The notes under the pieces are model-generated. The model had not been told where the DNA came from and did no database searches. It saw nothing but the letters and a program-made list of their open reading frames with translations. From the NCBI RefSeq assembly GCF_003790525.1, contig NZ_CP033635.1: a DNA stretch of 64,000 bases. One strand, given 5' to 3'. Position numbers and translations under genes: made by a program. The DNA is from Escherichia coli. Lineage in GTDB: Bacteria; Pseudomonadota; Gammaproteobacteria; Enterobacterales; Enterobacteriaceae. Below are positions 48,206-63,984 of this stretch, in pieces (positions within the stretch are counted from its first letter, which is position 1; each line of letters opens with the position of its first letter).

Positions 48206-48279
48206 GTATGTCTGTGCGTTTCCATTTGAGTATCCTGAAAACGGGCTTTTCAGCATGGAACGTACATATTAAATAGTAG

Positions 48280-48645
<366 letters not shown>

Positions 48646-60740: not shown

Positions 60741-60994
60741 ATCAGGCCATCCAGTTTCCGGACAGGGAAGAGTGGAACGAGAGTAAAAAATGCGTTTGTT
60801 TTCCCGCTCTTGTAAATGGTATGCAGCTCACTTGCGCTATTACTGGAGAGAGTCTGGCGAACCGCTTTGCAGGAGATACGCCAGAACAGTGGTTAGCGAG
60901 TTTTCGTCAGCATCGCTGGGACCTGGAAGAAGAAGCGGAAAACTTAATTCAGGAACAAAGTGAAGATGATCAAGGTTGGGTGTGGTTACCCTGA
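60737..60994 (+). CDS. yrdB: YrdB, small protein (DUF1488)
   Basis: 85-aa ORF; start overlaps aroE stop. Confidence 0.85.
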
Positions 60995-61524
60995 TCCATA
61001 TATTCGTCCTTCCATTTCACGTAGTTATTTGCGGAATAGCGTAACCCAGCCTTCTCTTCATCACTTAACGGGCGGATCTGTTTGACGGGGCTACCGAGAT
61101 ACAGATATCCGCTCTCCAGCCGTTTATTTTGTGGGACCAGGCTACCCGCACCAATCATCACATCATCTTCTACTATTGCGCCATCAAGTAAAATTGAGCC
61201 CATCCCAACCAAAACTCGATTGCCAATGGTGCAGCCGTGGAGCATCACCTTGTGACCAACAGTGACATCTTCGCCAATGGTTAATGGGTTGCCAGCTGGG
61301 TTGTACGAGGATTTATGAGTGACATGCAACATACTGCCATCCTGGATATTGGTGCGTGCTCCGATCTGTACATAATGTACATCTCCACGAATCACAACGA
61401 GCGGCCAGATCCCCACATCATCAGCCAGACGAACGTCACCAATCACGACGCTGCTATCGTCGATCATTACGCGCTGACCGATTTGTGGAAAAAGATCGCG
61501 GTATGGGCGTAAAACATCAGACAT
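60970..61524 (-). CDS. yrdA: YrdA, gamma-carbonic-anhydrase-like hexapeptide-repeat protein
   Basis: 184 aa from the ATG at 61524 (MSDVLRPYRDLFPQIGQRVMIDDSSVVIGDV...); the 293-aa ORF-track version runs on through the rrn promoter region. Confidence 0.88.
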   Translation of the reverse strand: MSDVLRPYRDLFPQIGQRVMIDDSSVVIGDVRLADDVGIWPLVVIRGDVHYVQIGARTNIQDGSMLHVTHKSSYNPAGNPLTIGEDVTVGHKVMLHGCTIGNRVLVGMGSILLDGAIVEDDVMIGAGSLVPQNKRLESGYLYLGSPVKQIRPLSDEEKAGLRYSANNYVKWKDEYMDQGNHTQP

Positions 61525-61676
61525 ACTCACCTCAACAATAAATGATTTCCTAATGACTTTGGGTGTATTATTGGCCTTGTGCAAGTCTTTTAGCATGCAA
61601 AAAAGCACCGTTTTGTGTGCGAATGCAGCAAAAAGGGTGAAAAAGCAACAAACAGAAAAAAAGATCAAAAAAGTAC

Positions 61677-61704
61677 TTGTGCAAAAAATTGGGATCCCTA
61701 TAAT
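61677..61704 (+). promoter_or_regulatory. rrnD P1 promoter (-35 TTGTGC, 16-bp spacer, -10 TATAAT)
   Basis: Hexamers with optimal spacing, A-rich UP-element-like sequence upstream, GC-rich discriminator GCGCC. Confidence 0.7.
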
Positions 61705-61784
61705 GCGCCTCCGTTGAGACGACAACGTGAAACACTTCACAAGATGGTCGTAACAACAAAGAGAAAAAATCCTGAAATTCAGGG

Positions 61785-61812
61785 TTGACTCTGAAAGAGG
61801 AAAGCGTAATAT
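61785..61812 (+). promoter_or_regulatory. rrnD P2 promoter (-35 TTGACT, 16-bp spacer, -10 TAATAT)
   Basis: Hexamers about 110 bp downstream of P1, as in E. coli rrn operons. Confidence 0.65.
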
Positions 61813-61852
61813 ACGCCACCTCGCGACAGTGAGCTGAAGGCCGCGTCGCAAC

Positions 61853-61870
61853 TGCTCTTTAACAATTTAT
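61853..61870 (+). promoter_or_regulatory. rrn leader boxA antitermination element
   Basis: TGCTCTTTAACAATTTATCA matches the boxA consensus. Confidence 0.7.
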
Positions 61871-61996
61871 CAGACAATCTGTGTGGGCACTCGAAGATAC
61901 GGATTCTTAACGTCGCAAGACGAAAAATGAATACCAAGTCTCAAGAGTGAACACGTAATTCATTACGAAGTTTAATTCTTTGAGCATCAAACTTTT

Positions 61997-63538
<1,542 letters not shown>

Positions 63539-63606
63539 CCTTAAAGAAGCGTTCTTTGAAGTGCTCACACAGATTGTCTGATGAAAATGAGCAGTAAAAC
63601 CTCTAC

Positions 63607-63801: not shown

Positions 63802-63984
63802 TCTCTGTAGTGATTAAATAAAAAATACTTCAGAGTGTACCTGCAAAGGTTCACTGCGAAGTTTTGCTCTTTAAAAATCTGGATCAAGCTGAAAATTGAA
63901 ACACTGAACAACGAAAGTTGTTCGTGAGTCTCTCAAATTTTCGCAACACGATGATGAGTCGAAAGAAACATCTTCGGGTTGTGA

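What the first reader, a model, noticed from the sequence alone, without database searches (positions are those of the whole stretch)
61525..61996. rrnD tandem P1/P2 promoters sit directly against the yrdA start
The yrdA start codon (61524) lies about 150 bp from the rrn P1 -35 hexamer on the opposite strand. Both promoters have GC-rich discriminators typical of stringent control, and a boxA element follows. The ORF track extends yrdA by 109 codons through this region, which is a gene-calling trap.
Basis: partly seen in the sequence, partly recalled or inferred. Interest (0 to 1): 0.15.

Follow-up and report, generated by a model that had tools for sequence, protein, structure and literature searches.

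The report
rrnD promoters beside yrdA start
This is the well-known control region of the E. coli rrnD ribosomal RNA operon lying head-to-head with the small gene yrdA; the long open reading frame that runs from yrdA through the promoters is a gene-calling artefact, and one that has already misled databases and a published enzyme study.

Summary
Confirmed and ordinary. The window is 100% identical to E. coli SMS-3-5 here and corresponds to K-12 yrdA (b3279) and rrsD (b3278). Bases 61525-61996 are exactly the yrdA-16S intergenic region.

- **P1:** TTGTGC, 16-nt spacer, TATAAT, discriminator GCGCCTCC, +1 G at 61713.
- **P2:** TTGACT, 16-nt spacer, TAATAT, +1 near 61820.
- **boxA:** TGCTCTTTAACAA at 61853-61865.
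- **Spacing:** the yrdA ATG (61524) is separated from the P1 -35 by 152 nt.

These elements are identical or nearly identical to K-12 rrnD. The core motifs are invariant across the seven K-12 rrn operons and across 27 enterobacterial genera.

The mechanical ORF (293 aa, +109 codons) is not real:
- Family and structure matches begin at residue about 110.
- K-12 has only +72 codons, because of a 1-nt indel.
- In 76 non-Escherichia relatives with an ATG start (3 are Pseudomonas without the adjacent rrn) a stop closes the frame (median 15 codons).
- RefSeq annotates 184 aa.

Two additions. The 256-aa long form sits in public protein sets and was expressed as the "complete" E. coli gamma-carbonic anhydrase. 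The head-to-head yrdA-rrn arrangement is conserved from Enterobacterales to Vibrio and Aeromonas.

Already known; low interest.

The parts
60970..61524 (-). yrdA coding sequence (184 aa, gamma-carbonic-anhydrase-like hexapeptide-repeat protein); true start ATG at 61524
   Evidence: RefSeq CDS in SMS-3-5 and K-12. PDB 3TIO YrdA matches residues 111-293 of the long ORF, E 2.8e-118. Pfam Hexapep and NCBIfam gamma-CA hits start at residue 114 or later. The ATG is conserved in 76 non-Escherichia relatives as well.
61527..61533 (-). yrdA Shine-Dalgarno GAGGTGA, 2 nt before the ATG (the GAGG core is 5 nt away)
   Evidence: Read from the sequence. The block TCACCTCA at 61527-61534 is at least 85% conserved across 27 genera.
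61556..61584 (-). Candidate yrdA promoter (inferred, weak): -35 TTGCAC 61584-61579, 17-nt spacer, -10 CAAAGT 61561-61556. An alternative -10, AATAAT, lies at 61572-61567.
   Evidence: Position-weight scan, 5.0 bits only. The same alignment column is the top hit in 11 of 27 genera and second in 3 more. The blocks ACTTTG and GTGCAAG are conserved. No transcription-start data could be retrieved.
61561..61649 (.). Candidate Fis sites centred at about -144 (61561-61576), -100 (61606-61620) and -71 (61635-61649) relative to P1 +1 (inferred)
   Evidence: Crude consensus scoring. The -71 site aligns with rrnB P1 Fis site I, and GTGAAAAAG is conserved across genera. Fis activation of rrnD P1 is stated in PMC5110994.
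61653..61675 (+). A-rich UP element of rrnD P1 (-60 to -38): CAGAAAAAAAGATCAAAAAAGTA
   Evidence: Aligned with the rrnB P1 UP element. Blocks at 61654-61674 are at least 85% conserved across 27 genera.
61677..61713 (+). rrnD P1 core: -35 TTGTGC 61677-82, 16-nt spacer, -10 TATAAT 61699-704, discriminator GCGCCTCC 61705-12, +1 G 61713
   Evidence: Unique match, 0 in 100 shuffles. Identical to K-12 rrnD. The -10 and discriminator are invariant in the seven K-12 rrn operons and in 27 genera. +1 is placed by alignment with rrnB P1. K-12 discriminator mutations at 3429052-55 map here (PMC7045392).
61785..61820 (+). rrnD P2: -35 TTGACT 61785-90, 16-nt spacer, -10 TAATAT 61807-12, discriminator ACGCCAC, +1 about 61820
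   Evidence: Promoter scan. Identical in K-12 rrnD, rrnH and rrnE, and the -35 is invariant in all seven. +1 is inferred from the deletion end-points in PMC5110994.
61823..61887 (+). Leader antitermination region: boxB-like hairpin 61823-61849, boxA TGCTCTTTAACAA 61853-61865, boxC-like TGTGTGGG 61880-61887
   Evidence: boxA is exact, with 0.07 matches expected by chance, and invariant in the seven operons. The hairpin folds at -13.5 kcal/mol, z -1.4, so it is not significant on its own.
61866..61913 (+). 5' arm of the 16S processing stem; it pairs with 63538-63585; RNase III site at about 61884
   Evidence: Inverted repeat of 48 nt, 75% complementary. The RNase III site at K-12 3428875 in the rrsD-yrdA intergenic region comes from PMC5371410, mapped through alignment A1.
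61997..63538 (+). 16S rRNA (rrsD)
   Evidence: Rfam RF00177, 1577 bits, full length.
60970..61851 (-). Mechanical ORF of 293 aa (TTG start at 61851). The upstream 109 codons are not coding; they are the reverse complement of the P1 upstream region, P1 and P2.
   Evidence: ORF list. No family hit in residues 1-109. Frameshift relative to K-12. Indel alleles of 129-132 nt within E. coli. Not conserved across genera. This exact 293-aa sequence is absent from the 15-billion-protein collection.

Best explanation
Bases 61525-61996 are the standard upstream control and leader region of the E. coli rrnD ribosomal RNA operon. It is transcribed rightward on the + strand and lies head-to-head with the leftward gene yrdA.

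How it works, in order along the DNA (the mechanism is established knowledge for rrn operons and is inferred here from sequence identity):

1. P1 is the growth-rate-responsive promoter. RNA polymerase is recruited by an A-rich UP element (-60 to -38) and by Fis bound further upstream.
2. P1 has a 16-nt spacer, a weak -35 (TTGTGC) and a G+C-rich discriminator. These make the open complex short-lived, so output tracks the initiating nucleotide (GTP at this promoter) and ppGpp/DksA.
3. P2 lies 107 nt downstream and gives a steadier basal level.
4. boxA in the leader RNA loads the Nus-factor antitermination complex.
5. The leader then pairs with sequence 3' of the 16S gene to form the RNase III processing stem.

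yrdA starts at the ATG at 61524, behind a strong ribosome-binding site, and encodes the 184-aa protein. Its own weak promoter probably lies about 30-60 nt upstream of that ATG, under the most distal candidate Fis site.

The frame stays open for another 109 codons, across the P1 upstream region, P1 and P2. This is an accident of this strain's sequence and is not translated.
For: Shown here:
- 100% identity to E. coli SMS-3-5 and 98% to K-12 rrnD-yrdA.
- The P1 -10 and discriminator, the P2 -35, boxA and the leader are invariant across the seven K-12 rrn operons.
- P1 with TTGTGC, the UP element and a -71 Fis-like site are conserved in 27 enterobacterial genera. P1 is recognisable next to yrdA as far as Vibrio and Aeromonas.
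- The leader and spacer form a 48-nt inverted repeat.
- 16S, tRNA-Ile and tRNA-Ala are present.

From the literature:
- rrnD has P1 and P2, and P1 is Fis-activated (PMC5110994).
- rrnD P1 discriminator mutations map to the same bases (PMC7045392).
- An RNase III site lies in the rrsD-yrdA intergenic region (PMC5371410).
- P1 promoters respond more to growth conditions than P2 promoters (PMC3113569).

For the short YrdA:
- RefSeq annotates 184 aa.
- Crystal structure 3TIO and all family matches begin at residue 109-114 of the long ORF.
- A perfect GAGGTGA ribosome-binding site precedes the ATG.
- The extension is frameshifted between strains.
- A stop closes the frame in all 76 non-Escherichia relatives with an ATG start, after a median of 15 codons.
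Against: - Nothing in the sequence contradicts this reading.
- No transcription-start, Fis-occupancy or N-terminal protein data could be retrieved for this locus. The key paper, Hirvonen et al. 2001, is not held. The genome-wide start-site tables are truncated.
- The Fis-site positions, the P2 +1 and the yrdA promoter are therefore inferences.
- The generic promoter scan does not detect P1 and is not above chance.
- A His-tagged synthetic 256-aa form is soluble and was reported active (PMC7470111). That shows the extension is tolerated when forced, not that it is made in cells.
Confidence: 0.95

Rival explanations
1. A long YrdA isoform is really made: 293 aa from the TTG at 61851 in this strain, or 256 aa from the GTG at 61740 as in K-12. 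The rrnD promoter DNA would then double as coding sequence.
For: The frame is open. The 256-aa form is annotated on at least 1000 contigs in public protein sets. A synthetic His-tagged 256-aa protein was soluble and reported active (PMC7470111).
Against: - No homology in the extension.
- No ribosome-binding site before either upstream start, whereas a perfect one precedes the 61524 ATG.
- A 1-nt indel shifts the frame between this strain and K-12. Alleles of 129-132 nt exist within E. coli.
- Stops close the frame after a median of 15 codons in 76 other loci.
- An mRNA for it would have to start inside the rrn leader and read antisense through two of the strongest promoters in the cell.
- RefSeq annotates no CDS over this stretch.
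Confidence: 0.02
2. The head-to-head layout is functional, not just tolerated. Under this reading, yrdA transcription is coupled to rrnD P1 activity. The coupling would act through the shared upstream region, by a distal Fis site over the yrdA promoter or by divergent-transcription supercoiling. YrdA levels would then follow growth rate.
For: - The divergent adjacency and its spacing are conserved in 65 of 80 gammaproteobacterial loci across Enterobacterales, Vibrionaceae and Aeromonas.
- The candidate Fis site at -144 overlaps the candidate yrdA promoter.
- Conserved blocks lie in the yrdA-proximal half of the spacer.
Against: - The synteny may only reflect the general stability of this chromosomal neighbourhood. 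rrnC/yieP and rrnE/purH are also divergent pairs.
- Both the Fis site and the yrdA promoter are weak predictions.
- No expression data were found that link yrdA to Fis or growth rate.
- The 80 loci are the best-scoring subset of at least 587, and most are contig ends.
Confidence: 0.15
3. The region encodes a separate small protein on the + strand: the 54-aa ORF at 61553-61717. It could be expressed from the antisense promoter inside yrdA.
For: The ORF is intact in this strain, K-12 and E. albertii. An antisense transcript starts inside yrdA (PMC2912661).
Against: The start codon is missing in 18 of 27 genera, and stops appear after 0-26 codons in 14 of the 27. Where the sequence is conserved, it coincides with the UP element and the P1 core.
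Confidence: 0.01

Closest known systems
E. coli K-12 MG1655 rrnD P1-P2-leader and yrdA (b3278/b3279)
   Same: Same locus and gene order. 98% identical over 531 nt. P1 from the -35 hexamer through +20, P2, boxA and the leader are identical. yrdA is 184 aa.
   Different: A few substitutions upstream of the -35, including one in the UP element (G for A at 61673). One A fewer in the run at about 61765, between P1 and P2. This shortens the P1-P2 distance by 1 nt. It also fuses two frames, so the mechanical ORF is 293 aa instead of 256 aa.
rrnB P1, the paradigm rrn P1 promoter
   Same: TATAAT, a GCGCC(A/T)CC discriminator, a 16-nt spacer, an A/T-rich UP element and a Fis-like site at -71. Candidate upstream sites at about -100 and -144 resemble the rrnB pattern of -102 and -143; the rrnB positions are quoted from memory.
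   Different: - The -35 is TTGTGC rather than TTGTCA.
- The spacer is A-rich and contains GGGATCC.
- +1 is G rather than A.
- The UP element is an A-tract rather than mixed A/T.
- These rrnD-specific features are conserved across genera, so they have not been homogenised with the other operons.
Other divergent rrn neighbours: yieP/rrnC and purH/rrnE
   Same: A protein-coding gene is transcribed away from the rrn P1 upstream region. The gaps from start codon to 16S are 480 and 614 bp, against 472 bp here.
   Different: Different genes. No long in-frame ORF artefact is known to me at those loci, and I did not check.
Historic start-site mis-annotation of b3279 (256-aa YrdA; WP_009008373.1 'EcoCAgamma')
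   Same: The same kind of artefact: the open frame upstream of the true ATG is called as coding.
   Different: In this strain the open frame is 37 codons longer and starts with TTG inside the rrn leader. That exact 293-aa product is not in the protein collection.

Membership tests
Enterobacterial rrn P1 promoter | -10 TATAAT followed by a G+C-rich discriminator (GCGCC..CC) and a 16-nt spacer | tested here: met
   61699-61712. Invariant in the seven K-12 operons and in 27 genera.
Enterobacterial rrn P1 promoter | A/T-rich UP element at -40 to -60 | tested here: met
   61653-61675 is 19 of 23 A/T (17 A, 2 T), aligned with the rrnB UP element and conserved. Binding of the RNA polymerase alpha subunit is not testable here.
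Enterobacterial rrn P1 promoter | Fis binding sites upstream of -60 | tested here: inconclusive
   Crude consensus scores of 7.0-8.5 at -71, -100 and -144. Between 0.5% and 4% of window positions score as high. The literature states that Fis activates rrnD P1 (PMC5110994).
Enterobacterial rrn P1 promoter | Regulation by ppGpp/DksA and by the concentration of the initiating nucleotide | not testable with these tools
   Inferred from sequence identity to K-12 rrnD P1.
rrn P2 promoter | Second sigma-70 promoter about 110 nt downstream of P1, TTGACT-16-TA(A/T)TAT | tested here: met
   61785-61812. Identical to K-12 rrnD, rrnH and rrnE P2.
rrn leader antitermination site (boxA, bound by NusB and S10) | TGCTCTTTAACAA in the transcribed leader downstream of P2, flanked by a boxB hairpin and a G/T-rich boxC | tested here: met
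   boxA is exact at 61853-61865. A hairpin is predicted at 61823-61849, though z is only -1.4. TGTGTGGG lies at 61880-61887.
Gamma-carbonic-anhydrase-like protein YrdA (184 aa) | Left-handed beta-helix hexapeptide repeats; near-identity to the solved YrdA structure | tested here: met
   3TIO, E 2.8e-118, over residues 111-293 of the long ORF. Pfam Hexapep. NCBIfam gamma-CA, 162.7 bits, which is below that equivalog's cut-off of 250.
N-terminally extended YrdA (256 or 293 aa) as a real protein | The extension is conserved in frame among relatives | tested here: not met
   Frameshift between this strain and K-12. Length alleles of 129-132 nt within E. coli. Stops after a median of 15 codons in 76 other loci.
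N-terminally extended YrdA (256 or 293 aa) as a real protein | Ribosome-binding site at the upstream start; homology in the extension | tested here: not met
   No Shine-Dalgarno-like sequence before the GTG at 61740, and only a weak AAGAG before the TTG at 61851. No family or structure match in residues 1-108.

The most novel reading that the evidence does not exclude
The head-to-head pairing of yrdA with an rrn P1 promoter has been kept at about 140-250 nt from Enterobacterales to Vibrionaceae and Aeromonas. This could mean the two are mechanistically coupled. A distal Fis site or divergent-transcription supercoiling at the rRNA promoter would set yrdA expression. That would tie a gamma-carbonic-anhydrase-like protein of unknown role to ribosome synthesis.
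Probability: 0.15. Interest if true: 0.35.

Novelty: already known. Interest (0 to 1): 0.12.

Why it matters
Biologically this is textbook material. The rrn P1/P2/boxA architecture and the corrected 184-aa YrdA start are both established.

The practical value is in curation.
- The 256-aa long form still circulates in public protein sets, on at least 1000 contigs.
- It was synthesised and characterised as the "complete" E. coli gamma-carbonic anhydrase with "72 extra residues" (PMC7470111).
- Those residues are simply the reverse-complement translation of the rrnD P1 promoter, UP element and upstream region.
- Kinetic and inhibitor data obtained with that construct should be read with this in mind.

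The conserved yrdA-rrn pairing is a modest lead on the unknown role of YrdA.

Tried and rejected
- The generic sigma-70 and terminator scan found only P2, was not above chance, and missed P1 because its -35 matches at 3 of 6. It is uninformative here.
- Hirvonen et al. 2001, which mapped the Fis sites of all seven P1 promoters, is not held. Exact experimental Fis positions for rrnD could not be cited.
- Published start-site tables were searched for K-12 coordinates 34288xx-34292xx and for yrdA: Cappable-seq, SMRT-Cappable-seq, Thomason 2015, Conway 2014 and the Dornenburg supplements. They are truncated, not held or absent. The yrdA transcription start stays unmapped here.
- The 54-aa ORF on the + strand (61553-61717) was considered as a small protein and rejected because it is not conserved.
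- A sigma-32 ChIP 'yrdA promoter' target from older work was set aside by both sides of that debate because it lies in repetitive rrn sequence.
- Two terminator-like hits on the minus strand, at 61817-61803 and 61783-61771, were not above chance. They overlap P2 and the inter-promoter A-run and were not pursued.
- One Pseudomonas locus (L085) showed 723 open codons upstream of my assumed start. That reflects an unreliable start assignment in a distant homologue with no adjacent rrn, so it was ignored.

Full report
**What is there**

The window matches E. coli SMS-3-5 at 100% over 60900-62100. The RefSeq annotation of that record lists, in window orientation: tsaC, aroE and yrdB on the + strand, yrdA on the minus strand, then 16S rRNA, tRNA-Ile, tRNA-Ala and 23S on the + strand. 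K-12 MG1655 has the same layout: yrdA (b3279), rrsD (b3278), ileU, alaU and rrlD. Rfam places the 16S gene at 61997-63538. ARAGORN finds tRNA-Ile(GAU) and tRNA-Ala(UGC) in the spacer. The finding's coordinates, 61525-61996, are therefore exactly the 472-bp yrdA-rrsD intergenic region.

**Checking the stated elements**

| Element | Coordinates and sequence |
|---|---|
| yrdA start | ATG at 61524, minus strand |
| yrdA ribosome-binding site | GAGGTGA, 61533-61527; a perfect 7-nt complement of the 16S 3' end |
| P1 | TTGTGC 61677-82, 16-nt spacer, TATAAT 61699-704, GCGCCTCC 61705-12 |
| P2 | TTGACT 61785-90, 16-nt spacer, TAATAT 61807-12 |
| boxA | TGCTCTTTAACAA 61853-65 |

- 152 nt lie between the yrdA ATG and the P1 -35 hexamer.
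- The composite P1 pattern occurs once in the window and never in 100 shuffles.
- Aligned with rrnB P1, the P1 start is the G at 61713.
- The P2 start is about 61820. This fits the deletion end-points that Gaal et al. give for rrnD P2, -107 to +2 (PMC5110994).
- boxA is an exact match, with 0.07 expected by chance.
- The discriminators are G+C-rich: 7 of 8 for P1 and 5 of 7 for P2.
- The generic promoter scan found only P2 and was not enriched over shuffles. The evidence that these are promoters comes from homology, not consensus matching.

**Homology evidence**

- The region is 98% identical to K-12 rrnD. The stretch from the P1 -35 hexamer to the 16S gene is almost unchanged.
- In an alignment with all seven K-12 rrn upstream regions, several elements are invariant. 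They are the P1 -10 and discriminator, the P2 -35, boxA and the whole leader downstream of boxA.
- Across 27 enterobacterial genera, the P1 next to yrdA keeps its particular features. These are TTGTGC as the -35, the A-rich GGGATCC-containing spacer, the A-tract UP element and a GTGAAAAAG block at the position of rrnB Fis site I.
- A crude Fis-consensus score picks -71, -100 and -144. From memory, that is the rrnB P1 pattern of -71, -102 and -143. The scores are weak, so I treat these sites as inferred.
- A 48-nt inverted repeat joins the leader (61866-61913) to the sequence just 3' of the 16S gene (63538-63585). This is the 16S processing stem.
- The RNase III site reported at K-12 3428875 in the rrsD-yrdA intergenic region maps to about 61884, inside that stem (PMC5371410).
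- Suppressor mutations described as lying in the rrnD promoter discriminator (K-12 3429052-55) map onto 61705-61708 (PMC7045392).

**The long ORF**

The mechanical ORF at 60970-61851 on the minus strand is 293 aa. That is 109 codons more than the annotated YrdA. Five lines of evidence show the extension is not coding.

1. Pfam, NCBIfam and PDB matches all begin at residue 109-114. Crystal structure 3TIO of YrdA covers residues 111-293.
2. K-12 has one more A in the run at about 61765. Its mechanical ORF is therefore 256 aa from a GTG, and the upstream part falls in another frame. Over the 131-nt stretch 61725-61855, other E. coli genomes span 129, 130, 131 or 132 nt, and RefSeq annotates no feature there.
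3. A scan of one genome per species returned 80 relatives.
   - The ATG is conserved.
   - In all 76 non-Escherichia loci with an ATG start, the upstream frame is closed by a stop.
   - The median is 15 codons, and 56 of the 76 are closed within 25 codons.
4. Neither upstream start has a convincing ribosome-binding site.
5. The extension is the reverse complement of the P1 upstream region, the UP element, P1 and P2. Its low-complexity Phe/Cys-rich sequence comes from reading A-tracts backwards.

**The trap has been sprung**

- The exact 256-aa K-12 form is in the public protein collection under "gamma carbonic anhydrase family protein" and "Protein YrdA", on at least 1000 contigs. The 293-aa form of this strain is absent.
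- Del Prete et al. 2020 synthesised the 771-nt, 256-codon gene (WP_009008373.1) as the "complete" E. coli gamma-carbonic anhydrase.
  - They speculated that these belong to another protein of the operon (PMC7470111).
- In K-12 coordinates those 72 codons run from +27 to -188 of rrnD P1.

**Context**

- "Directly against" overstates the layout. Other K-12 rrn operons have neighbours at similar or shorter distances:
  - yieP starts 480 bp from rrsC and purH starts 614 bp from rrsE; both are divergent.
  - murI, hemG and gmhB end 362-377 bp from their 16S genes, and clpB ends 442 bp away.
- The arrangement is old.
  - 65 of 80 loci show an rrn P1 motif, boxA or a 16S 5' end upstream of the yrdA homologue on the opposite strand.
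  - The ATG-to-(-10) distance ranges from 137 to 252 nt, with a median of 174.
  - Rfam confirms a divergent 16S in Citrobacter, Pantoea, Providencia, Salinivibrio and Vibrio, but not in three Pseudomonas loci.
  - Most of the 12 other loci without a signature are contigs that end within about 310 nt of yrdA, as expected at a collapsed rrn repeat.
- Whether this conservation reflects regulatory coupling is open.
  - The best candidate yrdA promoter is TTGCAC-17-CAAAGT at 61584-61556, scoring 5 bits.
  - Its column is the top hit in 11 of 27 genera.
  - It lies under the -144 Fis-like site.
  - No start-site or expression data could be retrieved to test this.

**Verdict**

The feature is already known, and it works as the classical rrn P1/P2-boxA control region. 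The only additions are a curation warning about the long YrdA form and the deep conservation of the yrdA-rrn pairing.

Noticed in passing
window 61525-61740 (minus strand); K-12 3429020-3429235: The 256-aa 'long YrdA' is annotated on at least 1000 contigs in public protein sets. It was synthesised and characterised as the 'complete' E. coli gamma-carbonic anhydrase (EcoCAgamma, WP_009008373.1). Its 72 extra residues are the reverse-complement translation of the rrnD P1 promoter region.
   Followed up: yes
loci L009-L088, upstream of the yrdA homologue: The head-to-head yrdA-rrn arrangement is conserved in Enterobacterales, Vibrionaceae and Aeromonas. 65 of 80 loci carry rrn signatures, and the median ATG-to-P1(-10) distance is 174 nt. 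It is absent in three Pseudomonas loci.
   Followed up: partly
window 61371-61376 (+ strand), inside yrdA: This is the only CATAAT in yrdA. It matches the -10 of the antisense RNA promoter that Dornenburg et al. 2010 mutated synonymously (CAT TAT to CAC TAC). The transcript would read toward rrnD P1. The mutation did not change yrdA::lacZ.
   Followed up: partly
window 60970-60994: yrdA (minus strand) and yrdB (plus strand) overlap by 25 bp at their 3' ends. The pair is listed among RNA-seq-based excludon candidates (PMC12288877).
   Followed up: no
window 63865-63977: A second boxA-like sequence, TGCTCTTTAAAAA (one mismatch), lies in the spacer between tRNA-Ala and 23S. It sits at the 5' edge of an Rfam StyR-44 match (123.9 bits). 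StyR-44 therefore appears to be the 23S leader, not an independent gene.
   Followed up: no
window 61663-61666 and 61690-61697; loci: GATC (Dam) sites in the UP element and in the P1 spacer (GGGATCCC) are conserved across Enterobacterales for this operon only. Many other genera carry an extra GATC pair at about -100 and -112 that Escherichia has lost.
   Followed up: no
window 61713; alignments A2 and A3: The G at P1 +1 is found in Escherichia and a few other genera. The other K-12 rrn operons and most genera have A at this position, so GTP initiation is specific to this operon and to certain lineages.
   Followed up: no
window 48210-48321: Rfam Alpha_RBS, the S4-binding translational operator of the alpha ribosomal-protein operon, at 102.7 bits. 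This is expected for this chromosomal neighbourhood.
   Followed up: no
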